From Iphione sp. A-MEVVRFRX5 (taxonomy: Eukaryota): a stretch of 64,000 nucleotides of DNA. Location of the stretch: contig OZ320318.1 of the NCBI GenBank assembly GCA_976226885.1, positions 35,402,001-35,466,000 on the forward strand, read 5' to 3'. Positions 44,863 through 62,607 of this stretch are shown piece by piece. The position numbers were made by a program, and so were the translations under genes. Positions within the stretch are counted from its first letter, which is position 1, and every line of letters begins with the position of its first letter. The notes beneath the pieces are model-generated. The model was given only the letters and a program-made list of their open reading frames with translations. It ran no database searches and was not told where the DNA came from.

Positions 44863-47842
44863 AAAATGACGCAGTTATATCTCTAGAGCAAGGCATAACA
44901 TGAATGTGTTTGACTAGAACTGAGGTGTTTGAGAAGACTCCTTTCACCAACCCCACCAGCTCAACTTTCCTCTGTTTAGCAGCTAAGCAATTGACTAAAG
45001 GGAATGAAATATCTAGGTAACATAGAACCTCGCTTTTTTTTAGTTTAGGATATGAGGATCCCCTGAGGGGATTGATCCAAAAACTGTGATTCACTGATTA
45101 TGTTTTTGCTTCATCCTATGATTTGACTGATGATGATGTTCGATTTTGTCCAGATCTGGACAAGGTGCTCCACCTGCCAGGGCAGCACTGGCCCCTGTAC
45201 TAGGTCAGAGGCCTTTTCTTGAGAAAGCCTTGGAGAAGGGCTTATGTCTCTGTTTGTAGTGTCTCTTGGTGTGGTATGGGTCCTGCTGGGGCAGCTGGCT
45301 AGTAGATTTGGCATCTGATGTCATTGTCTGCAATGCATGGCCATGTGAATGGCTGTGGGCTGGGCTGTTACATGCCTGTTAGGTGTTGGGGTCTGAGAGT
45401 CTTTTGTAGCCTGTTCAGGTCTCCTGGGTGGCGGCTGCTTGCTGGAGGGTCAGTTGTTGATGCCCTAGGCTATGGGATGTTTATTTTACAGAGAGCCAAT
45501 GTCTGTGTGTGGTACAGAGTTTTTGGTGTCAGCAATTCTGGTGTGGTCTTGGAGTTTTGTTGAGCTGGGGATGTGATGACTTGGCATGTTGGGCAGCCAA
45601 TGCAGTGATGCAGGAATATGCTAGTCTCTCTTCCAATGATGTCTGAGGATGATGAAAGGTTTATGCCTAGTGATTCTATGTAAAGTCTCCAAAGAATTGT
45701 CCACCCGCACTTGACTCTTGTCTATGTGACAACCTTATTTCGCTGATCAAGTACACCTGGCTTGAAATAAAGAAAACAGATTTTGCCACAGCATGTAAAA
45801 CTCTTCCTTTCATTAGTGTTGCTTCAGCCAATTCTAAAATGTCTAGGAGTCTTATAAACTTATAAATATAATTTCACCTGCTGAAACTGAAGGCGCAATG
45901 TATCTGCAATGTGAAGATCTTGAAGTCCTACATTGCATGTTTGTAGGAGGGAATTACCCTATGGATTCCAATCTCCTGGCCAAATCTGGATTTTTTCCCT
46001 CGGTAGTGACAGAGTGAAGTTTTTTGTACAATGGAATCAGACTCTATGTCTCTGTGTATGTTTATTCATCAGGCACATGGTCAGCCTAAACATGCTTATG
46101 TTCTTGCTACACTCCTTAATGATATGAGTGATCTAATATATCAGATGAAGCGTATGGAGTTGCAAGTTTCCCATGAAATCTCACGTGAAATCTCCATGTT
46201 GACCTATGAGGTTGAGTGTTATTGTGAAGTGTGATGAGGATGCGATTAGGTCAAGAAACACAGACTTCAACTGGTTACTTTTTAAGTTTTAAAAGCGGAC
46301 TTCTTTAGAAGTCTGAGTGCTTGACTAGACTGTTAGCCAGGATATCTAGTGGTCAGGATTTGGAGTTTCAATCTAGTTCAGTTGCACTCAGTTATTTTAT
46401 ACTTATGAAGCCATAGCAGTGGTAGCTTTGACAAGTATTGTCATTAACCAATGAAAGTGGGTTAATCATATGCAATGAATTATAATCCTGACTGGTGTTT
46501 TATGATGTTGCAAAGTGAAACACAAATAAAGTACAATAGAGTCTTGATTTCCGACCTCTGCGATTTCTGACCAAAACAGCCATTCCAACCATTTGAGTTT
46601 GGAACTGAAATTTTCTTCATACATAACCTATATGATTGATTATCGATTTCCAAACAAATCAATTTCTAACCATTCTCAGCATTCGACCAGTCAATACAAG
46701 ATTAATTTAGCTCTATCTTACTATCGATTTGTGACCTCTCTGATAAACAATGGTTAGGAGAAGCCGGGGATGTCAACGGCGACCTCTCTGATGTCTCTCA
46801 CACCCTGGAAGGGCTGTCTATTATGTGAAAGATGATATGAAATATTTTCTAATTTGCTTATCATTTACATAAAAACCACACAGTTTCTACAGAAATGCCT
46901 CTGCCATCATGACAAACCACACAATTTCTCCCAGTATGCCTCAGCCTCCATGACAAACCGCACAATTTCTACTAACCTCACCTCCTACACAAACTTGCGA
47001 ATATCTCCATTCTTGCTTTCTGCTGCCATTTAGTGTTAAAAATGCATCAAGCAACTAGTCAAGAATTCAAGCACATTGGCTCAGCTGGTTTCATGGTCAC
47101 AAAAGCAAGGTGCCCTGGCCTATAGATTCCAGCCACTTGCTACCAGGTTTGAACCCAGCTCTGATGATGGTGCTCATCCCAATGAGGAAGAAGAGAATAG
47201 TGGAAAGAAGGAAAGTGATGAGAGCAGACTGTGGCCCAGGATGGTGAAAATATAGGTGCAGCTTGCCACGGTCACTCTATTCAGAATAGGCTTGCCACTT
47301 TCCCTTCTTGGGTCAGAAAATACAGGTGGCTTTCTGTCAGTTGCATCCTGAATTCAGATATTGAGAACTGTTGACAACTAGCATATGACTTGTGTTACCC
47401 AGGATAGATGTGGAATTGTGGAACCCAAGGCATTTTTTACTCTAAAAAAACAGATTAAGTTAGTATTGCTCAGTGAGACAGTGGTACATATTGACATTAA
47501 AATTCGACATTACCAGCCACTCGTACGTATTGAAACATTTACTCAAACTTTACATGGAGGTAAAATTGTTTTATTATCATTTTTTTGGGTGGGGTCATGT
47601 GATTTGGTTAGAGACAGAAGGTATTTTCATGAGTCACTTCTGTCTGATCCACCACCATCTCTTTCGTGATGGGAAAGAAGAAAAGTCTGGAATTTTTAAT
47701 TGTGAGGGATCAATAGACATAAGGACAAATATCCCTCCGAGGAAACTTTGGTCAAACATTATCTGAGGGTTTTGAAAAATATTAACCTCCAAAATATTAT
47801 ATTAGAGAGGACATATTCTTGCTGCATTATTTATGCTAGGCC

Positions 47843-48268
47843 ATGGGAAGAAGAGCATACAATATACTAATCACAAAAGGAATGATATGTAATACTTTCA
47901 CCTGGCAAGCCATCAAAGAAATTCCACATCTGTTTGATGTTATCACTGAGCTAGAAGATGTTCCTACTAAAACTGAATTGATGGAGAATGTTTATGTTTA
48001 TATTCTTCATGATAATTACCAGGCATTGAAGGTTACAGAGGATTGCACAGGGGAAAATTTTACAGATCAAGCATCAAACTGTTTTGCTAATGCCATGGCC
48101 TATATTGCTTCTTTGTATGGAATCAATTTATTTTATACCTATGAAGACAGTGCTGATTTCTTAATGCAACAATATCCAATACAGATCCTGACCAAACAAA
48201 CACCAAACAGGATTTACATGATAATTTATGAACATGTAAAGGTTGAAGCATCTGATACTATTTCTTGA
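47843..48268 (+). pseudogene. Unidentified 141-aa ORF remnant inside the Polinton boundaries
   Basis: Protein-like composition, with broken upstream frames from ~47660; no family recognised. Confidence 0.3.
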
Positions 48269-49275
48269 CATGTAGTTGTTGAATACATTAATCCATATAA
48301 TTTATAAGAAGAGTAGTGGGATATGTCACTCATTTATTATGCATTAAAAGTGATCTAGCCAATATTTAAACAGGCTGTACCTTTAAAGACAACTGGAGTG
48401 CATTGTCGCATACATAAGGTCTATTGCGTTAAAATGTGGAAGAGCAAATCACATGCAAACAGATAGAAAATAGAAAGATAAAGTTCCAAAGTACAGGTTT
48501 TGACAGAGGATGATTCTTTGAAGATAATTTGCAGGAAGACTGAAATATTTCACTATGTCAAAGTTCCTATGGACATCGTGTTGTGGGTAATTGAACATAA
48601 GGAACTCATTCATAAGGTGAAGTAAACTAGTGAAGGAGATAAATTGCTTTGCACTGATATTCTGAATTAGAAAATCACTATCTCTTATTTCATGGAGGTT
48701 TTTACATTGGGTTTGATAAATATGGTGATGTCGGAATAAGAAATGGGTAAGTCACACTAGTAATTTAGATGGTTGAGGCTTTATTGAGCATATTGTAGGA
48801 TGAGATTCAGACTTAGGCATGGATCCATACGTGGATGTGTTATCTCACATTTATTTAAACTCATCATTACTATATATGTATTGCAAGTTGAAATAGGTTA
48901 ATCTTCAACTGGATGAGTTTCACAAGTTAGAAATGTAAAAGAAAGAAATCTAACAGAAGTAGAAGGGTCTCCTTGATGGGTCTCCTTGATGTGTGTAAAA
49001 TTGGTGACAACGGGAGATTGTCTATAGCATTGGTATTAATTCAGTAAAATCAGAATCATGGTTTCTCTCAAGGGACAATGCAAATGATGATGCCGTTATT
49101 GTGATAGATAATCTGGAAGACAGAGATAAGTGTGATATTGAAATTTTTGGTTAGGAATTTCTTTTATCAAGCGCAAGAGAGAGAGATGAAAATGTGTACA
49201 AGTATATTCTACAAATAGAGTTCGAAATATGTATAAAACACATTTATAGTGGTGCACAGTGGACAGGCTGCACAT

Positions 49276-51730
49276 AGACACCCTTGATCCAAGCACTGGT
49301 AGCAAACTGGACCTAATCATCACCAGATGGTCCAATCTGTAAAGCATCCTTATCACATGAACCTTCCAAAGTGCAGATTGTAACACAGACCATTCCGTAG
49401 TCTGCTCTAAAATGAAGCTAATACCTAAAAAATTTCACCTAGCTAATCCAGAAAGGAAAAGTTGCATCAACACCTTCTTGACTACTCATCCTGAGGAAGT
49501 ATCAGCCTTAAAAGAGAGCCTCTACCAAGTTATCCATAACCTGCCAGACAGTGACGCCCCATCTTACTGGTACAGGCCAAGAGACAACATATATCAAGCT
49601 GCCTTGTCCATCTTTGGAAGGAAATCCAGGACCACAAACAACTAGTTTAAGGTCAACTTGGAAACCATGGAACCACGTTTAGAAACAAAAAAGAAAAGCA
49701 GAATTAGCATACAAGCAAAATCCAAGTGACACAACCAAAGTACATCTAAGAAACAGCAGCAACAACATCAAGCAGACATCCAGACAATATGCAAACAATT
49801 ATTGTCTGGAGCTATGCCAAAGCATCCAAACAGCAGCAGATATAGGAAACATCCAAAATATATATGATGGCATAAAAAAGGCTCTTGGACCAAGGACAGC
49901 AAAAACAGTCCCTTTGAAAACACTCACTGGGGAGGCAATATATGACAAAATGCATCAACTAAATCGCTGGGTCGAACATTGTTCTGAACTATACCAATGT
50001 GAGAACACAGGTAGCTGAACATGCACTGTATTCTATTCCCAACAATGAAGGAACTTGATTATCTACCAACAAAAGAAGATCTCTCAAAAGCAATTGACAA
50101 ATTGAAAACAGGCAAATCACAAGGACAGAATGGCATACCACCAGAAATCTTCAACTGTGCTAAAACCACAGTGCTAGCACAACGATACAAACTCCTGTGC
50201 CAGTGCTGGAACAACGGAGAGGTACCACCAAGACATATGTGATGCCAACATCATCACACTTTACAAGAACAAGGGAGACCATAGGGACTGCAATAACTAC
50301 AAAGGTATTTCTCTTCTTAGCATTACTGGAAAGCCATATGGAAAATTTGTGCTATGCAGACTCCAAAAGCTAGCGGAGAGAGTTTACCCAGAGTCACAGT
50401 GTGGGTTCTGCTCTAGAAGATTGACTATGGACATGGTATTCTCCAGCAGGCAACTGCAAGAAAAATGTAGGGAACAACAGATGCCACTCTACATAGCCTT
50501 CATAGATCTAGAAAAAGCTTTTGATCTAGTCAGCAAAGGAGGACTTTTTAAAATACTTCAGAGAATACACTGCACACCAAACCTGCTCAACCTCACTAAT
50601 TCCTTTTACACCAACATGAGGAGCACAGTGCAATATGACGGCTCTACCTCTGACCCCTTCGCAATCAATAGTGGGGTAAAACAAGGCTGTGTCCTTGTTC
50701 CAACACTCTTTGGCATATTCTTCTCTCCAACATGCCTTTGTCAACTCAACAGAAGGTGTCTACTTCCACACAAGATCAGATGGAAGCCTGTTCAACCCCA
50801 CTCGATTAAAGGACAAGATCAAGATAAGGGAGTCCTAGTGAGAGACATGCAATTTACAGATGAAACTGCCCTTGTTACCCACACAGAGGATGAACTACAA
50901 AAACTCATCAATGACTTTTCCAGAGCAAGCAAGGACTTATGGTTTACCATGAGCTTGAAAAGCCCAACATTCTAAGCACAATCAACAACCCAACCCCAGA
51001 AATTGAAATCAACAACTATACACTAGGTGTTGTGCATGACATTACATACCTTGGTTCAACAATCACTAACAACCTTTCCCTGGACAAGGAGCTAAACAGA
51101 CAGATAGGTAAAGCAGCAGGTACTCTAGCAGGACTCAAAACTAGAGTATAGGAACACCCAAACATTGCAAAATCAGTGTCCACAATGCTTGTATCCTGAG
51201 TTGCCTCCTCTATGGCATTAATACTTGGCATTGCCTGGAGTGATAAGGTCTCAAATCAAGAAGGTCTCACAAGAACAAAGTCATCAAGCATGTATACCAT
51301 CCTGAAGAAGCACTGACTTCTATGGCTTGGACACATCCAGAGAATGGAAGATCACAAGATACCCAAGACCATTCTGTTTGGTAAATTAGCCTCGGAATAT
51401 AGACCAGTAGGATGGCCGAAACTTCACTTTTAAGACCTGGTGAAGAAAGACCTCCAGGTTTTCAACTTGAACCCCCAAACTTGACAAGACCTGTCAAAAG
51501 ACAGCACTAAGTGGAGAGACTCCTTACACAAAGGAGCTACAAAACTGGAAGTGACTCTAAAACAATAGGCAGAAGAAAAAAAGATCACACAGAAAAGAGC
51601 CAAGTTGTGATCTGATACCCAGACACACCTGTGGGATGTGTGGCACGTCATGTCTATCTAAAATAGGCCTGTACAGCCACACTACAAAATGTGCAAATCC
51701 ATAGTCTACAAGACTGAAGGAGGCCAACTA
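49276..51730 (+). mobile_element. RTE-clade (BovB-like) LINE, 5'-truncated and frameshifted
   Basis: End of APE domain (LDLII...ADCNTDH); RT motifs PESQCGF, FIDLEKAFD, GVKQGCVL; RTE-type 3' end atccatagtctacaagactgaaggaggccaac. Confidence 0.9.
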
Positions 51731-52389
51731 TGTTAAATATTTCCCTGGGTTCTCCAACTGAATATAAAAAAGATTGATGTCTTATGCAACCAAGCCTGGC
51801 AGGAAGTGAAGAAGATGATTATCAAAACTGACTGTACGATACCCACATTTACAAACTTTACTTATCAAGGAGAGAAAACTAGTCCTGTAATATATACAGT
51901 CTCAGTCATGAGAGTCAGTAGCTGTAAAAGTCAGAATTCAGATAACCAGGTGAAATGACTATTGATTCTGGTTATGTTTGTATTGATTCTTCTGTTAGCT
52001 CCACTGATTATATTCATGTGTTGTCTCTGTAGAGAAACACAGAGAGTGCTGAATGGTGACAGACTTTTTCAGTGAATGAATGCTTAAATCGAGGAATTGC
52101 ACGTGGCTAGAGGACATGAAAAGCACTTTCTATCTTTTCATTCTCTCATATCCTATGACATCCATGACCTAGTCATGACCTAGTCATAAGTGTCTTGAAC
52201 AGGTACAAGCTCTCCCGCTGACCTATTGATGTCAGCTGTATTTTATATCATGCACCTTTTGCAACAACTGTTGCACAAAACTGTCTACTTTATGTCGAGC
52301 ACGGACATCCAAGTACAGCCTAGTCAGATGTGCTTGCTTTTTGTGACCTTCAACTATGTTGTTCCAATTCACAGCTGCTCAGTAGTGCA

Positions 52390-54160
52390 AACTGCACTTA
52401 AATAGCTTTCTTTTTTTGGCGTTCGACTTTGATTCTTAACGATTGCCCTCCTCTTGTACTTGACACATCTGCCAGTGGTAGCAAGCCTAGCTTAACCTGT
52501 CTGTGTGTGGCAGCTAATGCTCTCCACAGAATCAGGTCTTCTACCCTCTTAATACAGCCACGCTCACACAGTAACTTTGCAGATGCCTGAGGGTTTAGTT
52601 ATAGGCACATACTGACACATCTATTGAGATGTAGTTGCATGTTGCCCAGAACTGCCTTGGAGCAGTTGTACAGAACAATTGCTCGAAAATGCAAGTGTGG
52701 CATTACAAGCGTCTTGAACAGATGTAGCATAGTGTGCCACTGCAATAGCCTCTTGACCCTGGCTACTTTCAATGACACTGACACATTTTGCTTTTGATTT
52801 TCTTTAGGGCTTCTTCCCCATACCTTTGAGTTTAGCATGTAGCCAAGCAGTTGCACCTTCATGCATAATGCCAGCTCTACACCTTTTACTTTAATGTCTA
52901 ACAGTGTGCCCACTGCTGTGCCCATAGGCATATAACAGCATTTGCCTTCAGATAGTACTAGTCCTCTTCGACAACACCAGGCTGCCACAAGATCAATACT
53001 GTGTTGACAGGCTCCCCTAAGTCTCAGTAAGTCTTTCGCGATTACTATACTCGACAGGTCATCTGCATAGAGAACTTCATCGCTGTAGTTTGGCATGCAG
53101 TTGACCAGCTCGTCAATCACTAGACAGAATGCCACAGGGCCAAATACTGACCTCTGAGGTACTCCATGTTTGATACTCCTTCTTCTCGAGTCTTTGTCAC
53201 AACAGCAGACGTATTGTGTTCTATCAATAAAATAGCTTTGAACCAACCTATGAATGCTGTGGCTTGCGCCAGCTACTTCTAGTCTTCTGAGCACTTTTAT
53301 GGAGGGCACCAAGTCAAATGCCTTCCGCATATCAAAGGCCAGGAGACAGCAGTATAATCAAGCGTTCATGTATTCCCTTGCTTTGCCAATAATGTATGTC
53401 ACTGCAATCTCTGTGCTTCGCCAGGGTCGGAAGCGATATTGTTTGTTGCTTATGAATTTTTATTTGGCCAGTTGTCACATCAAGTCGGCAACAAACCACT
53501 TCTCGAAAATTTGTCCAGGGAGTGGCAATATAGACATGGGTTTGTAGTTACCTAGGCAATTTGCATCACCGTGTTTGTATAGTGGTGTGAACCATGCTTT
53601 TTACCACATCCCCAGATACTGCCCACACTTGACTATACAGTCGAAGATCCAATGAACAAAATCTTGATTGAGCAGCATGAGCTGTTTCAGTACCTTTGTT
53701 GGTATACCCTCTACACTAGAGGCTTTGTTAACACAGATTCCTCTGATGATTGGCCTGAGTTCTGATGGAGCCAGCAGCTTGACATCAAAGGTAGTATTGC
53801 TTTCCAACACATTGTCCATGCTTGACTCAGTGATGGGTGGTGCATGCGCTGCCACCTCATCTATGAAGTAATTGTTCAGTTGTTCTGCAACTGTTTCTGT
53901 TTTCTCTTCTCCTAGGATCTTTTTGTGTGGTAACTTCATGGCTCCCCTGCCACACCCCAGTTCTTCATTGAGGATTCCCCATGTTTTGGAGGAGCTACTG
54001 CCAGCTTCATCTAGCTTCATTTTCCAAAACTCTTGGTGATCTTGTTCCAGTGAATGACTGATTTGCTTGTTCAAATGTTTAAAGATGTGTAACATATCCT
54101 CACAGTGATACTTCTTCGACTTTTGGAAGAAGTACTTCTTGTCAGCATTTAATTCTTACC
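52390..54160 (-). mobile_element. L2/CR1-group (Daphne/Crack-like) LINE fragment
   Basis: KTWGILN, AEQLNNYF, KASSVEGIP; RT motifs KAFDLV, GVPQRSVFGP, LYADD; boundaries approximate. Confidence 0.85.
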
Positions 54161-54520
54161 CTTGAGGTTTTTGCAGGGCTGCAGGTTTAGGTCACTTGAT
54201 ATTAAATTTATATGGACACTAGATTAACAGTGCAAGTGCAGGTCACTTGCTGTACAAACACCTGTTACTAACCTGTTGATTTTATCATTACGCATGTATA
54301 TGTATGTGTACCTATTTCAGGAAGACTGAATTGACACCTGCAATGGCCACCTGTGAGGCAGTGGCCACAGTGGAAATCACTATAATTTCAAGGAGATGGG
54401 GCAGTAACAGAAGTGCTGTAGTGCCTTGCGAGACACCCAACCATTGTGGTAATTTAATTTGACATGATGATGATAATAGAAATGCTATAGAACATTTCAA
54501 GAGAACACCCAACCATTATA

Positions 54521-55905
54521 ATTTGTTTGAGTTTGAGTTCTTTATTCAATGTCTCTGATTACAATTCAGAGTTATCATTGTTGAATGTATGTGTTAACAA
54601 GGATTTTTTCAAACATGATGAATGTCTAACTGGTGCTGTTGAGAATTGATTACACACACAGCACAGAGCATAGAATAAATTATTGATCACAGAATCATGC
54701 AGTTGTTTCTCTATCTCACATAGTATTGCTACAAAATACAATTTGTGTTACAGTTACCACAGTATTAAACCATCTTTTCATGGTGAGCGTAAATAAGAGT
54801 CAATAATCAGCCTCTACTTTTGGCAGTAATTGTATACTCAAATGGTCATCATGCATGTAGTCATACTCTCTGCGTAGTATCATGGTATCTGGTCACAGAG
54901 TGCCAGTGTCAGGCTGAATCTGCCTGCAGTGTTTGTTTTTAACTTACTTCAATGACATGTACTACCATGTATACCACCCACCAGGCTTTTTACCAGCCAG
55001 GGTTTCATGCCACCAGGTTAGCGATAGACCGTAGGATGGTGTGATTGTCAGGTCTAGCCATCCAGTCACACATGACCTTCAAGATTGTCAAGTACTCTCC
55101 TGTTTAGTCTACGGAGCCTCTGCACCTCTACTGGGAGTTCATTCCAGTAACTGACACCAAGATATCTCAAGCTACTGGCATATTGGCAGCTCTTTGCACC
55201 GTCCTGCTCCTCCTCGTCTAGTCTTAGGTAATGGTAGACGTGGCTATGCTCCCTTCTCCCCTACAGTGCAAGTCTAGTCTTAGTGGGAACTTCAGCGGGG
55301 ATCATTCCAAGTCTCACCTGGTTGTGTGTCGCAATGATGCCCCGACACCTAATGAGTTTCTCCACTCTCGGTATGCCAAATCTACTTGCCATCCTTGTGG
55401 CAGATAGATGCTCGTGACCTTGCAGACATAGTCTGCCGCAGCAGTTTAAGTACACCTGTAGGTCCACTATCACAGACTTGGCTGCTCCAAACCAAAGTAC
55501 AGCATTGAACTGGTACAATGACATCACCAACACAAAGAAAAGGGTCAGCCTTGCTCTTAGTGGCAGAAAGAGTTTTGTTCTGCTGATCTTGAGCGATGTA
55601 ACCCAGGTCTTCTTTTTGACCTCATGGCAGCTCTCCATCATCTTCAGACCTGCATCAAGTCTATACCGTAGTAGTTTGGTCGACGTCTCTAGTTTCAGGG
55701 GCGAGTTGTTGAGTGTTAAGTCCAGATTTTTGCCTTTTGCCTTGCCCAAAGGGCAATGGGCGCACTTGGTTTCACTTAGGACGAAACCTTCCATACCACA
55801 CCACTTAGCAACCGCCCCTAACGTCCTTTGAGCCACACCGCGAAGTCTTAGTAAGTCGCTGGCTGATGCGATGACTGCCAGGTCATCTGCATACATGACC
55901 GCCAT
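54521..55905 (-). mobile_element. Related L2/Daphne-like LINE, 5'-truncated at YADD, with 3' tail
   Basis: MYADDLAVIASASDLLRLRG parallels LYADDLSSIVIAKDLLRLRG of the neighbouring copy; aataaagaactcaaactcaaac tail at 54521-54548. Confidence 0.85.
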
Positions 55906-55909
55906 AGTG

Positions 55910-56061
55910 CATCCTGAGACAAGAAGCTGGATCTGTGTTAATCACAAACAGGCTAGGATGCCTAACCTCTGTGGGGAGTTTATCATAAGCTGATACACTT
56001 TGGAATATTTTGAGGTACAGCTATCTGCTAACAGGTACTCAGTAATCTGTTGTCCATTCAT
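55910..56061 (-). pseudogene. Polinton adenain-like cysteine protease, N-terminal fragment
   Basis: MNGQQITEYL...(frameshift)...YDKLP...PSLFVINTDP...H fits the consensus MNTxQI..L..GVFxxDxLP..P..xVNTDP..GxHW; cut by the LINE at ~55905. Confidence 0.7.
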
Positions 56062-56206
56062 TTTACACTGTGAGGAACAGCATCCATCTGATGGTTACAT
56101 TGGTCATATGCATCACTGATTGGTTTAGACTTTAGTGATGACTATTAGTTCATTTTTATATGTTAGAGCATTACATTCCATCAGATGGCATTTCTTTTCC
56201 AAATTA

Positions 56207-57290
56207 TTATTCAACTATTACATTTCTGGCCTGATCAACTTTTATTACCACCTCAAAACTTTTGTAGAAGATTACTGAAACTGGTTCAGTTAAAGCTTTA
56301 ACAAACTTGGCAGTAAGATTAATTTGACCTCTATGTAGAGGGATGGTATAGTTAGAATCTTTCTCTTTGTCCAAATCAGAAAAATATAGACAATATCCAC
56401 CTTTTAAATAAGTTATATTAGGTGGTTGTTTCTGGTCAGGAGGCATACAGTCGAATGGTCTGGAATATGCTAAGACATACTTACTCTTCTTGTAGTCAGG
56501 CTGTAAGATTTGAGCTACACTAGATTGACCATTCACTGGAAAGTCAAGGTAATTTAAATCAAAATGTTGAACGTTGAATGGATTTTTTCCATCATCTCTA
56601 GAGTAAGTGCTTGACTGTACAAACCCTACTACTAATAGCTTTGGGATCGAATCTTTGAACAGGTTATCCATGCTGCAGCTTAGACTATCCTTGGGAATAC
56701 TGTAACTTTTAATTTCACTTCTCATAAAAGAATGCCATTTCCGTTTTGGACATCTCAGCTTGCACAGTGATCATATCTAGATGTATTCTAGCATAGGGAA
56801 CAATAGATTTTGCATCTGAGAGAGATGAATCATGTATGTATGATTTAGATGTAGTGGCTGGTGCAGTGGCTGTGGATGTCTTGTACAGAAGTCTAAACTT
56901 TGCTGTAATTGGATATTACTTGATGCTCAAGGATAAACCATTTAATAATAACTTATCTTGTGGTCAGATAACCATAAAAAGCCGAGATTAAAGAGTATCC
57001 TTGTTTTCAGTCTTAGTTTTATCATACCTTTGTGGCAGACCAGTGTTTCCACTTGTTTTCACCTGACAATCATTCATGTCATTCATGAGTAATGCATCAT
57101 CCTTTATAAGCAGCTATATGCATTGAGCTCATTTGATCATTATTCCCAGTGCAAGTAGAACTTTATATGGAAAATTAGCTCGGACAGTAGTAGTGATCAC
57201 CTGTTATTGAATTGCTGAATCAATTTGTCTACAGATTGAACAAGAGATGAAGTTGGCAAGGCTGACATCATTTGTTTCTTTAACATGTTT
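56207..57290 (-). pseudogene. Polinton double-jelly-roll major capsid protein
   Basis: C-terminal ORF NLF..IPKLLVVGFV..KNPFNVQHF..VNG..PDY..GYCLY..DL..IKVDQARNV; broken N-terminal motifs RQID, FPYK, GNTGLPQR, QDKLLLNG. Confidence 0.9.
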
Positions 57291-57443
57291 GTCCTGGTCA
57301 GTATATACAGTCAAACCTCATCTTCCAGACAACCTCTGGAATGTGATATTTTGTACGGATGGCGAATAATACGGAGTACAAAACAGTGACCCATCCATCT
57401 CCTGGTGGGGAAAACTGTCATAATGATAAAGTATGGGAACCTT

Positions 57444-58536
57444 CCCAGGCAGCACAGAACGTTTTAAAAACGTTTTATAACGTTTCTATTTGGTTATAAC
57501 ATTTAGAACCATTTTACAATGTTTTACGAACGTTTTTATTTGGTTACAATGTTTGCAACCATTTCACAACATTTTAAGAACGTTTTTATTTGGTTACAAC
57601 GTTTGCAACCATTTTACAATGTTTTAAGAACGTTTTTATTTGGTTACAATGTTTGCAGCACCTGACGAGGTGTGAGAGACCGCTGGGGGCAACATGAGGA
57701 TGGCCAAAGACTGAAACAGAACCTGACGAGGTGTGGGGACCTTTGGGGGCGACAGGAGGACGGCCAAAGACTGAAACAGGATCTGACGAGGTGTGGGGAC
57801 TTCTGAGTGCGACAGGAGGACAGTCAAAGGCTGGAACAGGACCTGACGAGGTGTGGGGACCTCTGAGCAGGACAGGAGGATGGCCAAAGCCTGGAGCAGC
57901 ACCTGACGAGGTGTGGGGACCTCTGAATGCGACAGGAGGACGGTAAAAGGCTGGAACAGGACCTGGCGAGGTGTGGGGACCTCTGAGTGTGACAGGAGGG
58001 TGGCCAAAGCCTGGAGCAGCACCTGACGAGGTGTGAGAGACCTCTGAATGCGACAGGAGGAAGGTAAAAGGCTGGAACAGGACCTGGCGAGGTGTGGGGA
58101 CCTCTGAGCATGACAGGAGGATGGCCAAAGCCTGGAGCAGCACCTGATGAGGTGTGAGAGACCTCTGAGTACAACAGGAGCACTGTCAAGGCCAGGAGAG
58201 GTGTGGGACAAGGTGTGAGAACCATGGTGACACATATGTGCAGCCCCAGTGGAGCAGTAGGTAAGAGTGCCAGGTACTACACTGGCTATGTATGGAAGAG
58301 ATTCCCCACATTGAAGAACCAGGTTCAAACCCTGCCTAGAACCCTCACATATTTTTTCAAAAATGCTGTGAAAAGGTTTTTTTAAAAACATTCTAAAAAT
58401 GTTTTTTTAAAAACGTTCTAAAAACGTTTTCTAGTCTGGTTAGGAAAACATTATGCAAACTTTCATTTACAACGTTTTGAGAACGTTTTTTACAACGTTT
58501 TTACAACGTTTTTACAACGTTTTTGTGTTGGCTGGG
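57444..58536. mobile_element. Non-autonomous EnSpm/CACTA-like element (CCCAG..CTGGG ends, 2-bp TT TSD)
   Basis: TIRs cccaggcagcacagaacgttt / aacgtttttgtgttggctggg; AACGTT-rich subterminal repeats, including a 50-bp unit x3.5 at 57481-57655. Confidence 0.7.
57660..58200. repeat. GC-rich minisatellite, ~9 units of 60-61 bp
   Basis: acctgacgaggtgtggggacctctgag..gacaggagga.. in register with the 60-nt lines; no unique spacers. Confidence 0.95.
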
Positions 58537-58541
58537 TTAAG

Positions 58542-58742
58542 GAGGTCACAGCCTGCATGTTGCTCTTATGTAATCATCTTGCATGTCTGTATTTGACTTT
58601 AAACGTATGTCAGTCGCTCTGCACTCTGTTGTCTCTTCCTTTTAGAGGTCACGGCTGGCATATTTCTGTTATATAATCATTTCACACATCTGTATTTTAC
58701 TTTGAACCCATGTTAGTCACTCTGCGCTTTGTTGTCTCTACG
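58542..58742. repeat. Diverged ~103-bp tandem duplication
   Basis: gaggtcac...tgttgtctct occurs at 58542 and 58645. Confidence 0.65.
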
Positions 58743-58949
58743 TTTAGGAATGTCTGGCCCGCTTCCTTTGTTCTCTCTAGTCCAGTTAACTGAGTGTATT
58801 TCCTATGTTAAATGCTCTAAAATGCAGCTAAATAGTGTACAAATATGGAATGTGAGTCTCCGGTTAACTAGTACAATTCATATAAAAAAACACTTGGTAA
58901 TTTAAAACCATTATGGTTAATGCGAAAATCCAATTGTTGATGCTACGGT

Positions 58950-59745
58950 ATACGAGTTTCCTCTGTATCTGGAGTGTCACTAATGGTGCAATTTCATTTG
59001 AAAGAATGTAGTCTGAAGAATTATTCACCACATCAACCTCTACGGTAGATGTGTCTTTGATTTGGACTTTTTTTCTTGCTACTGATTTTTCCATGCAATG
59101 ACAGAATTTGCAGACCTAGCCTGATGTGGGGTCATCCTAAGACTACAATGTTTTGAATGCTGAGATAATTTCAGCCAAGACATCTATCCACAGATGGGAG
59201 TCATTTTGTTGCATAGCATGAGTAATTTTAGTTTTAGGGGTTTTGATTGCTCTTTCTGCTAAATTCGTCTGCACAAGAGTGGTTTTACAGACATTGGTTG
59301 TAAAGAAATATTCAACACTTATATCTGTTAGGTATGACTGAACTCAGAACCAAAATCTGTCCTTAACTTGGTTGGCTTATGATGATTAAAAACTTCCTTT
59401 AAAGCTGCAACAATTTCCTTGCCTTTAAGGTATTTTAGAAATACTGTCCAAATAAACTGAGCAAATATACTGATTAGTAAAAGTATATAATCAAACCATC
59501 ATTTTCAGACTTATATTCATGTATATTGATAGTATCCCCATCCCACTGCTGATCCTTTATGTAAACCACTACCCTCAGTCTTTTGACTTTCTGATTCACT
59601 CACCTGTGTAAAATATATGCATTTTGTCCTTGTAACCATTCCTTAACAACCTTTCTCTTATATCCTGGAAGTTTAGTTGCTTGATGGAGATAATTAATGC
59701 TCCTGAATGATGCTGAATGGGAAGGCTCAAACGGAATGAAATAAC
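58950..59745 (-). pseudogene. Polinton retroviral-like (DDE) integrase
   Basis: PSHSASF, VKEWLQGQNAYILHR, QQWDGDT, ENDG.YILL, LRTDFGSEF, AERAIKT, WIDVL, MTP across frameshifts and stops. Confidence 0.88.
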
Positions 59746-59759
59746 CACTAGCTGATATA

Positions 59760-60160
59760 AATGTGTTATATTTGTCAAAGTCAATTGCTGTAATAGGGCA
59801 CCATATAACCGGTGTTAGTGTAGTAATCTCTGTCATGTGATTTACATGCATGCATAAGAGACCAGCTAGATATTGTAGTAGATCATTCTCAGAGGCATAT
59901 CTGGCAATAGAGCATCCATCTGTGGTGTCTCTTTTGATAAGATCACAGATACCACCAATGACAAATATTAATCTGAATGAAGAAATGTTACAGTCATTAT
60001 AGATATCTTTGGTGTTGTGATGCAAGTCGCCTGCTGGGTGTACCCTGACCACATATTCCACATCTCCATTAATCTCATTCAGGACAGCTTGCAATCCTTT
60101 TCAACAAGAGTCTGATAGAATTAATATTCGTTGTGGTTGATGGTTTACCAAACGATCACC
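59760..60160 (-). pseudogene. SGNH/GDSL hydrolase-like frame, 3'-truncated
   Basis: ILILSDSC*KGLQ (block I, DSRGxG consensus; stop at 60103-60101), FVIGGICDL, VIWCPITAIDFDKYN. Confidence 0.65.
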
Positions 60161-60186
60161 CTAAAAAAATGGGGAAAGGTAAGATG

Positions 60187-61486
60187 TTATTGGATTTCAT
60201 TACCTAGTTCCATCCAAATTTTGCCTACGACATTTTCGCCTTTGAATTTGTTTGCACGAAGGCGTTTTGACAGGAGGCCTATGCCAGATCCAAGAAGCTT
60301 ATCATTTGTAGAGTGTACGAGTGACTTTTCTTTTATGTTAACTAAGAATTTTTTTCAGTTTAGGGTTGGTTTTGATCTTAATCAATAATATTTTCTTGAG
60401 GTCCTTACCATTGCGAGCCTCTGCTTCTGGTGAATTAGGTAGTGATTTTCTAATATCATGCAGTTGTTGTATGGAATGTGACTGCGTTACTGATCTGACT
60501 AGGTCAGTTCTCCCCATCTCCTTTGCTTGTTTGTAGACAAAGGCATGAGCAACCATTGGGAGTGTTATGCAATCCATCAGTATGGGTGACCTATGTTGGT
60601 CTGAGAGTAGTGAATATTTACCCTGGAAGTAAACATGTGAGCTTGTTACTATCGTTGACGCTGCTTTTAGGTTCAATTCTGATAGCAACAGGTGTAATTG
60701 GGAGTGATGATATTTCTTTCCATTAATCATGATTAAGAGCCCAAAAACTGCAGACTTGAAGCCCTTCTGTTTAGCTAGGCTGGCTATTAGGTTTAAATCT
60801 TTTTGAATTTGTACTGCTTCAGACGGGAGATCCTCAGTAATCCACACATTAGAGTATTTTTTGGCAAGATTGTGTTGGTTTTTGAAAACTAGATCTCTGA
60901 CTTCAACGTTAGTGAACTGAGCATGGATTGCAGTAGGTGTAGTTTTCTTAACCAGATATATTTCCCTAATTTTATTGTCTGAGAACTTCGGTGTAATGTC
61001 TCGGAGCAATGCACCAACCTGCTGTTTGATAGGAGAAGAGGAATTGATGCTAAAACCATGTATAATGATATTAGCTCTTCTTTTCTTAATCTCTCTGTCC
61101 AGAAATTTGTTCCTTAGATCCTCAAGTTGAGCCTTGAATATCTGATTCTCATTTTTGAAGGCAGCAATCTCGATCTGGGCAGTTTTAAGGCTGTTTTTAT
61201 TGTTGTTGGTGTGAGTGTTATCTGTATTTGTGCTAGAGACAGGAGGAGAAGCGGGAGAAGTGTTGGTAGAGAGCTGATTCTTTGTGATATTATTGGAAGA
61301 CAGACTTATCTGTGTGCCGGGTGGTGTAGTCAGCTTGCCGTTACCACTGCCACGGTTGTTCTTGATGGTGGGTGACTCAGCTACAGGCCGGTTGATTGGA
61401 CTGTGTCCAGCGTCGGTCAGATTGGGGTCAGTCCTCTCAGGTGTGTTTACCCCTCTTCTGCGCGTATTCCTCTTTTTTCCGGCCAT
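60187..61486 (-). pseudogene. L1-type ORF1p (coiled coil, RRM, CTD) fused to a NADAR/YbiA-like domain; one +1 frameshift in an A7 run at ~60349-60355
   Basis: RRANIIIHG, VWITEDLP and INGKKY ORF1 motifs; then YFQGKYSLLS..AHAFVYKQAKEMG..ILLIKIKTNPKL and, one base off, LVHSTNDKLLGSG..FKGENVVGKIWMEL*. Confidence 0.75.
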
Positions 61487-61661
61487 AATCCTTCTTTGTA
61501 AGGGCTTAGTCCAATATGGTCTCTTCCTTTGTGTCTTTTAGTGATTTGGTTTAATGCTGGCTATGTATTTAGTGATGAGGAGATCAAGGAGTGAGGTAGA
61601 ATTTAGAAAAAAACCCAAAGCCCACCACAGACACGTCTCTACTCTACCCCGCCATTATATT

Positions 61662-62210
61662 AACCCTAATATTCTCTTACATTCCTTTTTCCCCCTGATT
61701 GTTGTTTCGCCAGTTTAGTGATATCACTTAAAGATAATGGACGGCCCTCCTATGATCTTTTTCTTGAAAATTCTGTACAAATCTTTGTCTTCACTTTCAA
61801 AACTTTGAGAAAATGAATTTGTTGCTCTACAGCTTTGAGAGAGTAATCTTCTGGCTAACCTGGGACACGATATCACTATCTTAAACACATCTATTCCTCT
61901 ATCAAAGTAAAATTATTGGAATTCATGTAGAGCACTCACAAATAGTTCCACATCTTTGTTATCATACCACATCAGAAAATCCTTAAAGGTTTGCATATTT
62001 TCCGACTGCCATATTTTCTGGAGGCATACATAATCATCCATTGAAATATTAGATTTTCTTAAACTCCAATAAAAGAAGGTGGCAGAAAGGTTTCCTTTAA
62101 TCAATCAAATGAGTCAAAATACTCATAGAGGAAAAGGCCTTTGGTTTCCTGTATCAAATAGGATTGCAGAAATATCAGCATTGATCATTAATTCATTTGA
62201 TCTATGTAAA
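61662..62210 (-). pseudogene. Polinton protein-primed DNA polymerase B fragment
   Basis: ETKGLFLYEYFDSF, DYVCLQKIW..MQTFKDFLMWYDNKDV, FYFDRGIDVFK, KIIGGPSIIF, CKRILG; ends just before motif A. Confidence 0.9.
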
Positions 62211-62607
62211 AATCCCACTCCGCTATGTTATAATTATGTTGATCAAACTATGATCGAGATCTAGCATTATCCTATCCAACTCGGGCACAGTATAAGACAA
62301 TGGTAAGTACCCTATCTATTTTTTTCAGACCTCCCTGAACACAATTAAGACTTATGGGCATTGTTTATATTTCATGTTTTGGCTGGATCCCCCAGTGGGA
62401 ATCCAAGGATGAAAGAAAGATTCCCCTTTAAAGTTAAGAGCCTTGTCCTCATGCTACTGGATGGTTTGTCAGATGTGACCATGACAAACAACTGGATCCC
62501 CCAGTGAGGATCTGATTATGAGAGAAAGAAAGATTCCATTGAACAGTTTACTGGATGCAATCATGACATACCTAAGACTGTAGTATTAAAGAAATAATAT
62601 GATTGTA

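What the first reader, a model, noticed from the sequence alone, without database searches (positions are those of the whole stretch)
60187..61661. L1-type ORF1p fused to a NADAR domain: a candidate retroelement anti-ADP-ribosylation module
Seen: after a ~175-nt leader starting ATAATGGCGG (YY1-like, as at L1 5' ends), one ORF encodes a basic N-terminus, a coiled coil and L1-ORF1-like RRM/CTD motifs. It continues into a region matching the NADAR pattern along its length (F.G..S.LS; H...K.A...G; IL..K..NP.L; LV....D...G.G; F.G.N..GKI.MEL). It is much less decayed than the surrounding Polinton, so it is probably a later insertion. Known: NADAR/YbiA proteins are N-glycosidases; bacterial and phage NADARs reverse DarT1 guanine ADP-ribosylation of DNA; guanine-specific DNA ADP-ribosyltransferases exist in animals (pierisins, clam CARP-1). 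Inference: a retroelement family packaging an eraser of nucleic-acid ADP-ribosylation into its RNP, with a downstream SGNH ORF. Caveat: two normally conserved Glu positions read A (VAHAF) and H (LVHST), so this copy may be decayed or a pseudo-enzyme. I do not know whether the fusion has been described.
Basis: partly seen in the sequence, partly recalled or inferred. Interest (0 to 1): 0.8.

Follow-up and report, generated by a model that had tools for sequence, protein, structure and literature searches.

The report
LINE with dead NADAR, spliced esterase
This is the broken front end of a jumping gene (a LINE) whose RNA-coating protein carries a NADAR domain that has lost the residues needed to cut ADP-ribose and so likely only binds, while the same DNA holds conserved splice signals that are predicted to hand a start codon to a third gene, an esterase.

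Summary
Observation confirmed, interpretation only partly. The stretch is the 5' 1.9 kb of a three-ORF LINE, inserted in a Polinton and cut by a deletion at ~59732. Intact relatives in the same genome show L1-type ORF1p fused to NADAR (Pfam above cut-off; Foldseek hits 2yko, 8bau), an SGNH ORF, and a ~955-aa APE-RT with CR1-group motifs. The missing glutamates are family-wide, not decay: 0 of 34 relatives keep E43, K50, W89 or E125, yet dN/dS is ~0.16. So this family is probably not an eraser. Sister LINE families keep those residues (38 of 39), as do 125 of 142 public fusions. New here: the SGNH ORF usually has no ATG of its own; 39 of 41 copies carry ATG|GTAAG inside the NADAR and an in-frame acceptor about 245-300 nt on, with Kozak -3 A in 37 of 39. 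The 5' leader also pairs best with its own inter-ORF spacer (15 of 17). No RNA data were seen. The ORF1-NADAR fusion is already in print (oyster Tx1, PMC12477816), and this scan found it, including degenerate forms, on other DNA four times.

The parts
61612..61658 (-). Conserved 5' end of the element (ATGGCG..TAG..GACGTG motif, probable internal promoter) and the 5' arm of the long-range helix (about 61640-61612, degenerate here; its partner is deleted in this copy)
60338..61486 (-). ORF1, main frame: basic disordered N-terminus, coiled coil (~61192-61080), RRM (~61078-60833), CTD (~60832-60650), first two thirds of the NADAR domain
60187..60348 (-). C-terminal ~50 codons of the NADAR domain in a shifted frame, ending at the family's normal stop
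60349..60355 (-). Run of seven A in which the ORF1 frame breaks
60187..60650 (-). NADAR-fold domain lacking E43, K50, W89, E125; keeps H44, D130 and the G-x-N-x-x-G motif
61304..61312 (-). Nucleotide-constrained CAG ATA AGT motif in the ORF1 N-terminus (GATA-site-like, label recalled)
60545..60574 (-). Nucleotide-constrained motif over the codons around the lost E43 (bZIP-like and Myb-like sites, labels recalled); candidate internal promoter 135-165 nt upstream of the SGNH ATG; partly decayed here
60404..60411 (-). ATG|GTAAG: predicted start codon of the SGNH ORF (60411-60409, +1 frame of ORF1) followed by a splice donor
60161..60408 (-). Predicted 248-nt GT-AG intron covering the NADAR C-terminus and the ORF1 stop; polypyrimidine tract and TAG acceptor at 60180-60161
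59733..60160 (-). SGNH esterase exon, first ~140 of ~222 codons; stop at 60103-60101; cut at the deletion junction before the D-x-x-H motif
61695..62184 (-). 5' flank: decayed Polinton protein-primed DNA polymerase B interrupted by the LINE
59039..59731 (-). 3' flank: decayed Polinton integrase from about codon 13, joined directly to the SGNH remnant

Best explanation
This is the 5' remnant of a three-ORF LINE whose L1-type ORF1 protein ends in a conserved NADAR-fold domain lacking the catalytic residues, likely a non-catalytic nucleic-acid-binding module, and whose SGNH esterase is predicted to be made from a spliced RNA that takes its start codon from inside the NADAR coding sequence. Shown: architecture, folds, family-wide residue loss, purifying selection, conserved splice signals, Kozak context, 5' leader/spacer complementarity, insertion in a Polinton and later deletion. 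Inferred: unspliced RNA makes ORF1p and is the template that is copied into the genome; ORF1p trimers coat it and the basic dead NADAR (net charge +7 against 0 in sister families) adds a binding surface for RNA/DNA or ADP-ribosylated bases. A second RNA, probably started at an internal promoter over the old active-site codons, splices ATG to the SGNH exon and makes a free ~223-aa esterase that would serve membrane-linked RNP traffic as proposed for ZfL2-1. The long-range helix would bring the 5' end within ~300 nt of ORF2 and most likely helps ORF2 translation. Odds: identity and dead active site 0.85; splicing real 0.8; internal promoter rather than stop-restart 0.55; binding role 0.5; helix aids ORF2 translation 0.4.
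For: Architecture: 18 of 20 ten-kb loci have APE/RT downstream, 9 in one frame of 844-996 aa; 14 of 20 have a full ORF1 with NADAR in frame. Folds. Residues: 0 of 34 keep E43, K50, W89, E125; sister E-type families 38, 39, 39, 38 of 39. Selection: NADAR pN/pS 0.34, median dN/dS 0.16 on 36 unsaturated of 78 pairs, like RRM 0.18 and CTD 0.11. Charge. Splicing: of 44 sequences, 41 had a recognisable SGNH start; 39 have both donor and acceptor; acceptor-like YAG in the SGNH frame 40 against 4 and 6 in the other frames; -3 A in 37 of 39 although that codon codes Y, H, Q, N or D. 35 of 39 have no Met between acceptor and block I. Only 4 of 81 invariant amino-acid columns with synonymous options use a single codon, two being the donor. 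Wider clade: 14 of 14 distant SGNH families have an in-frame acceptor, 11 as YAG|ATG; E-type families show acceptors 1-9 nt before their ORF1b ATG. Helix: cognate partner best in 15 of 17, permutation 0 of 20000, against 1 of 13 in E-type.
Against: No RNA reads were seen, and no spliced genomic copy was found among the 41 SGNH starts examined, so splicing is untested. His at the E125 position (23 of 34) is the residue of active phage NADARs (PMC11125620), E88A (=E43) only mildly lowered activity in vitro (PMC11543638), and D130 is kept in 33 of 34, so some activity is not excluded. ATG depletion upstream of the predicted start is weak. No donor-like site was listed 60-330 nt upstream in 5 of 14 distant families or in some E-type copies. 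ATGs lie between the helix arm and ORF2 in sequences read. Synonymous sites are near saturation (pS 0.75), so dN/dS is rough. The RT clade was not placed against reference clades.
Confidence: 0.72

Rival explanations
1. One reading: this family's ORF1p-NADAR is an active eraser that removes guanine ADP-ribose from the element's RNA or cDNA, using a remodelled site with His at the E125 position as phage NADARs do.
For: Fold kept; His at that position in 23 of 34, H44 33 of 34, D130 33 of 34; phage NADARs have His there (PMC11125620); NADARs act on RNA guanine-ADPr (PMC11833690).
Against: K50, essential in E. coli C7 NADAR, is Q/L/E/C in 33 of 34 and R in 1; E43 and W89 are gone in all; the His is Tyr or Phe in 11 of 34 equally intact families. 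No host Scabin-like or DarT family match (inconclusive).
Confidence: 0.1
2. The domain has no ligand role: it is kept as a folded structural cap of ORF1p while its DNA serves as promoter and splice signals for the esterase.
For: Nucleotide-level constraint sits exactly on the codons around the lost E43 and just after the lost W89; spliced RNA would remove the C-terminal half of the domain.
Against: Amino-acid constraint covers the whole domain, far beyond ~12 constrained codons; a strongly basic surface and an invariant C-terminal block are kept.
Confidence: 0.12
3. The esterase is made from the spliced full-length RNA by stop-restart: ribosomes end a shortened ORF1 just after the junction and restart at the overlapping ATG; or the signals are not used for splicing at all.
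For: After splicing the ORF1 frame stops within 1-5 codons in 20 of 39 copies; some E-type junctions give overlapping stop-start or in-frame fusions (read).
Against: The stop lies 10-31 codons away in 19 of 39 copies; the conserved motif 135-165 nt upstream pairs with nothing cognate (1 of 11) and looks like DNA sites; the frame-specific acceptor and Kozak A argue for real use.
Confidence: 0.3
4. An ordinary host gene fragment or chance match, with no link to a reverse transcriptase.
For: The window copy itself has no RT downstream and only a weak Pfam score.
Against: 28 related loci at 65-70% DNA identity besides the window's own, 18 of 20 fetched with APE-RT, poly(A) signal and (TAT)n tails, deletion junction explains the loss.
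Confidence: 0.01

Closest known systems
NADAR domains in ORF1 of Crassostrea gigas Tx1 LINEs and in Pol of Ectocarpus Gypsy elements (PMC12477816; three text passages and the Fig. S2 legend seen, the alignment itself not held as text)
   Same: YbiA-family NADAR attached to a LINE ORF1 protein; role in handling the RNA intermediate proposed there.
   Different: Here ORF2 has CR1-group motifs, not Tx1 features; the catalytic residues are lost family-wide; a third, SGNH ORF with splice signals follows. The passages seen say nothing on residues, splicing or esterase.
NADAR hydrolases: P. nicotianae NADAR (8BAU), E. coli YbiA (2B3W), DarT1 antitoxins, T4 gp30.3 (PMC11543638, PMC11125620, PMC11833690; passages seen)
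   Same: Fold, H44, D130, G-x-N-x-x-G.
   Different: E43, K50, W89, E125 and W133 absent; fused to an RNA chaperone; net basic.
Human L1 ORF1p and type II (Tnp22) ORF1s of CR1/L2 lineages (PDB 2YKO; PMC4120745, passages seen)
   Same: Coiled coil-RRM-CTD; type II ORF1s are known in CR1 and L2 subgroups.
   Different: Extra C-terminal NADAR-fold domain; no such domain in the table of that survey.
Esterase-type ORF1p of ZfL2-1, CR1 and RTEX (PMC3905857, PMC4120745; passages seen); GDSL extra ORFs of rotifer LTR elements (PMC5408684; passages seen)
   Same: SGNH fold with Ser and D-x-x-H kept.
   Different: In those LINEs the esterase is the ORF1 protein itself; here it is a separate ORF beside an L1-type ORF1, mostly without its own ATG; block III Asn reads Cys (G-I-C-D).
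Spliced subgenomic mRNAs of retroviruses and Ty1/Copia elements (PMC5580714 seen in a search listing only; otherwise recalled)
   Same: One RNA kept unspliced as genome, a spliced form for another protein.
   Different: This is a non-LTR element; the start codon itself is delivered by the splice.

Membership tests
NADAR/YbiA superfamily (fold) | Pfam PF08719 above gathering score and YbiA fold | tested here: met
   7 of 7 intact ORF1 relatives 50-63 bits, cut-off 35.1; Foldseek 8bau, 2b3w. Window fragment alone 15.9 bits.
Active NADAR hydrolases | E43, K50 and an acidic (or phage His) residue at E125, W89 | tested here: not met
   E43 0 of 34, K50 0 of 34 (1 Arg), W89 0 of 34, E125 0 of 34 (His 23, Tyr 9, Phe 2) (numbering).
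Active NADAR hydrolases | Hydrolysis of guanine-ADP-ribose or N-glycosides | not testable with these tools
   Needs an assay.
L1-type (type II) ORF1p | Coiled coil, RRM, CTD | tested here: met
   Top Foldseek hits are human L1 ORF1p; no Pfam Transposase_22 hit.
Autonomous APE-type LINE | Downstream APE-RT ORF and 3' tail | tested here: met
   18 of 20 loci; AATAAA plus (TAT)n tail in 12 of 13 elements. Absent in the window copy by deletion.
CR1 group (CR1/L2/Crack/Daphne/Kiri) | ~950-aa ORF2, G-V-P-Q-G-S and W-N-x-L motifs, no C-terminal CCHC (features recalled) | tested here: met
   8 of 8 window-type ORF2s 953-972 aa with GVPQGSTLGP and FADD, 0-3 Cys in the last 120 aa.
CR1 group (CR1/L2/Crack/Daphne/Kiri) | RT phylogeny with reference clades | not tested
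   No reference sequences were available from the tools; trees hold only this genome's families.
Tx1 / L1 clades | Long ORF2 with C-terminal CCHC finger and G-x-R-Q-G motif (recalled) | tested here: not met
SGNH hydrolases | Fold and Ser...Asp-x-x-His triad | tested here: met
   Foldseek E 2.5e-6 to GDSL esterases; both motifs in 31 of 36 window-type and 14 of 14 distant loci. Oxyanion Asn replaced by Cys.
Spliceosomal GT-AG intron | Conserved donor, polypyrimidine tract, acceptor in productive phase | tested here: met
   39 of 41; lengths 243-301 nt.
Spliceosomal GT-AG intron | Spliced RNA observed | not testable with these tools

The most novel reading that the evidence does not exclude
A clade of three-ORF LINEs expresses an accessory protein from a spliced subgenomic RNA, as retroviruses do; in this lineage promoter, start codon and splice donor were written over the NADAR active site, leaving a dead, basic NADAR beside a live esterase, while the sister lineage kept a live NADAR beside a dead esterase, and a 2.3-kb-span RNA helix steers ORF2 expression.
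Probability: 0.5. Interest if true: 0.68.

Novelty: new variant of a known kind. Interest (0 to 1): 0.5.

Why it matters
The ORF1-NADAR fusion is common (142 of the 150 best clusters in a 1.8-billion-protein library) and has no tested function. One genome here holds matched live-site and dead-site versions, a natural pair for asking whether retroelements fight nucleic-acid ADP-ribosylation or only use the fold to bind. LINEs are taken to be intronless two-ORF units; a conserved intron that delivers a start codon, and a covarying helix between the 5' leader and the pre-ORF2 spacer, give directly testable answers to how downstream ORFs of LINEs are expressed.

Tried and rejected
Homologue search with the window ORF1 alone found nothing (0 of 6483 candidates); with alignment A1 one protein of 8000 scored. 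Sequence search of PDB with the SGNH alignment gave nothing meaningful. An in-frame ORF1-SGNH fusion for the window family was considered: phase-0 GT columns exist but none is donor-like, and the best (GTAAC) lacks GT in 2 of 13. RNA pairing as the reason for the four nucleotide-constrained motifs in ORF1: cognate best in only 1 of 13, 1 of 13, 1 of 11 and 0 of 13. ATG depletion test for an internal 5' UTR: weak. A tandem double-ORF1 element at L039: rejected, it is a window-type element nested between ORF1 and ORF1b of a sister element. Reciprocal loss (live NADAR/dead esterase versus the reverse) cannot be tested statistically: it is two lineages on an unrooted tree; the careful tree did not finish and the quick one was used. 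Rfam: 0 matches in 3 loci. Host Scabin-like and DarT family searches: no match, but no control rang. Cluster look-ups gave no names or taxa for 10 public homologues. No complex prediction was run.

Full report
Observation. ORF1 runs from 61486 to 60338, breaks in a run of seven A at 60355-60349, and its last ~50 codons end at 60187. On the window piece alone Pfam NADAR is weak (E=0.016) and a homologue search was empty, so the test had to come from relatives.

The element. A DNA search of the own genome gave 41 matches; 28 loci besides the window's own were ORF1/SGNH relatives among the 30 returned as loci or Polinton integrase matches at the query's end. Twenty were fetched at 10 kb. Fourteen have a full ORF1 with NADAR in frame and 18 have APE/RT downstream, 9 in one frame. 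The layout is: conserved 5' motif, ORF1 of ~410-490 aa, an SGNH ORF of ~222 aa, a 580-860-nt spacer, ORF2 of 953-972 aa, and a tail of AATAAA plus (TAT)n. ORF2 has GVPQGSTLGP and FADD and no C-terminal CCHC finger, which by recalled criteria is CR1-group, not Tx1 or L1; no reference tree was possible. AlphaFold and Foldseek confirm L1 ORF1p and NADAR folds and the SGNH fold.

The window copy. Its 5' end interrupts a Polinton pPolB gene and its 3' end, at ~59732, is joined to a Polinton integrase at about codon 13. Against another Polinton of this genome about 5 kb of Polinton is missing there, as is about 4 kb of the LINE, so insertion followed by deletion is the simplest account. The copy cannot transpose by itself.

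Is the NADAR an enzyme? PMC11543638 (passages) names E43, K50 and E125 of Phytophthora NADAR, and shows K and the E125-equivalent essential, E43-to-Ala mild in vitro. Of 43 window-type loci, 34 had a scorable domain; none keeps E43, K50, W89 or E125. The domain is under purifying selection (median dN/dS 0.16 on 36 of 78 pairs) and is basic (mean +7, n=33, against 0, n=36). Against a fully dead reading: His at E125 in 23 of 34 is the residue of active phage NADARs (PMC11125620, passages), and D130 is kept.

Sister families. An ORF1 upstream of one relative (L039) had all three residues; searching with it gave 150 of 150 scored candidates as matches. Twenty fetched loci show the same three-ORF plan in 19. 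In 39 scorable domains of 40 loci, E43, K50, W89, E125 are kept in 38, 39, 39, 38. Their middle ORF is weakly homologous to the SGNH ORF (hhalign prob 67%, E 5e-5) but has no block I Ser in 19 of 19 and no D-G-x-H motif (one unrelated D-x-x-H string). Conversely, a search with the SGNH protein gave 151 matches; 14 distant ones keep the triad in 14 of 14 and lack E43 and E125 in 9 of 9 scorable domains. RT trees put live-esterase and live-NADAR families on opposite sides of one branch (unrooted), so the reciprocity is two lineages, not a statistic. In public data the fusion is common: 142 of the 150 best clusters span both parts, 125 with E43, K/R50 and E125; no taxa were given.

How the esterase is likely made. 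The SGNH ORF begins with a polypyrimidine tract and YAG 20-70 nt after the ORF1 stop. A codon alignment of 13 ORF1s shows one invariant donor, ATG|GTAAG, inside the NADAR. Of 44 sequences, 41 had a recognisable SGNH start and 39 have both signals; the two others are a decayed copy and one mis-located by the script that shows both signals; three were dropped for lack of a start. Acceptors are frame-specific (40 versus 4 and 6). Splicing joins the ATG in frame to SGNH and out of frame for ORF1; 35 of 39 have no other Met before block I. The base at -3 is A in 37 of 39 while the ORF1 residue varies among Y, H, Q, N, D: selection for a start context rather than for an amino acid. Distant families have YAG|ATG instead (11 of 14). 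A second nucleotide-constrained motif lies on the codons around the lost E43; it pairs with nothing cognate and resembles bZIP and Myb sites (recalled), so an internal promoter is favoured over stop-restart, about 55 to 30. No RNA evidence was seen and no spliced genomic copy was found.

Long-range helix. In 17 scorable elements of 22, nt ~19-52 of the 5' end pair best with their own spacer in 15, mostly 240-320 nt before the conserved ORF2 start motif (mean -36.6 versus -24.3 kcal/mol for non-cognate pairs; 0 of 20000 permutations); 43 of 431 pairs are G-U and the sense strand pairs better in 13 of 17. E-type elements do not show it (1 of 13). Its role is a guess.

What is known. PMC12477816 already notes NADAR in ORF1 of C. 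gigas Tx1 LINEs and in Ectocarpus Gypsy Pol (supplement legend only: the Fig. S2 alignment could not be read and may show residue states). Esterase ORF1s and type II ORF1s in CR1/L2 are known (PMC3905857, PMC4120745, PMC5408684; passages). PMC11203168 has no NADAR, esterase or intron mention in the main text. Seven searches showed no listing that describes a LINE with NADAR-ORF1 plus a separate spliced SGNH ORF; Repbase entries and subscription journals were not searchable. Four earlier notes of this scan report the fusion, two in degenerate form, in other genomes.

Verdict. Real feature; known fusion; this family is most likely a pseudo-enzyme, not an eraser. The added value is the predicted splice-delivered third ORF, the reciprocal sister lineage and the covarying helix. 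New variant of a known kind, interest 0.5.

Noticed in passing
spacer between SGNH and ORF2 in L031-L048, L131, L136: A repeated hairpin-like motif, GG(T)RAA-N4-TTTACC, often with a bulged extension, 1-3 copies in 15 of 17 elements (mean 1.8 versus 0.008 in shuffles); no Rfam match. Candidate protein-binding site.
   Followed up: partly
L039:1672-9996: A window-type element inserted between ORF1 and ORF1b of a live-NADAR sister element.
   Followed up: yes
L081-L099, upstream of ORF1b: E-type families also have acceptors just before the ORF1b ATG and donors 185-290 nt upstream in many; in L081-L087 splicing would give an in-frame ORF1-ORF1b fusion, in others an overlapping stop-start (read).
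   Followed up: partly
window 61304-61312 and ORF1 alignment columns 40-42: Two nucleotide-constrained motifs in the disordered ORF1 N-terminus (GGG TCR CCC; CAG ATA AGT) of unknown role.
   Followed up: partly
3' UTR of L031-L043: Conserved CGTCCGATAGGACG hairpin-like sequence just before the poly(A) signal and (TAT)n tail, a probable RT recognition site.
   Followed up: no
L049:3430-4800: A copy in which an internal deletion joins the ORF1 RRM directly to the RT in one frame.
   Followed up: no
window 47722-62422: Decayed Polinton (pPolB, integrase, capsid-like ORF at 57314-56210, probable terminal repeat near 62302-62422) broken by several insertions, including other LINE RT remnants at 54140-52446 and 50244-50726 and a tandem repeat near 57586-58406.
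   Followed up: partly
P0004, P0005, P0008, P0134, P0138: Public proteins with 3-7 tandem NADAR-like stretches (up to 4240 aa) that score highly against the profile.
   Followed up: no
L152 (Polinton of G000): This genome's Polinton family carries an IAP/BIR-like ORF between the ATPase and integrase region (read; label recalled).
   Followed up: no
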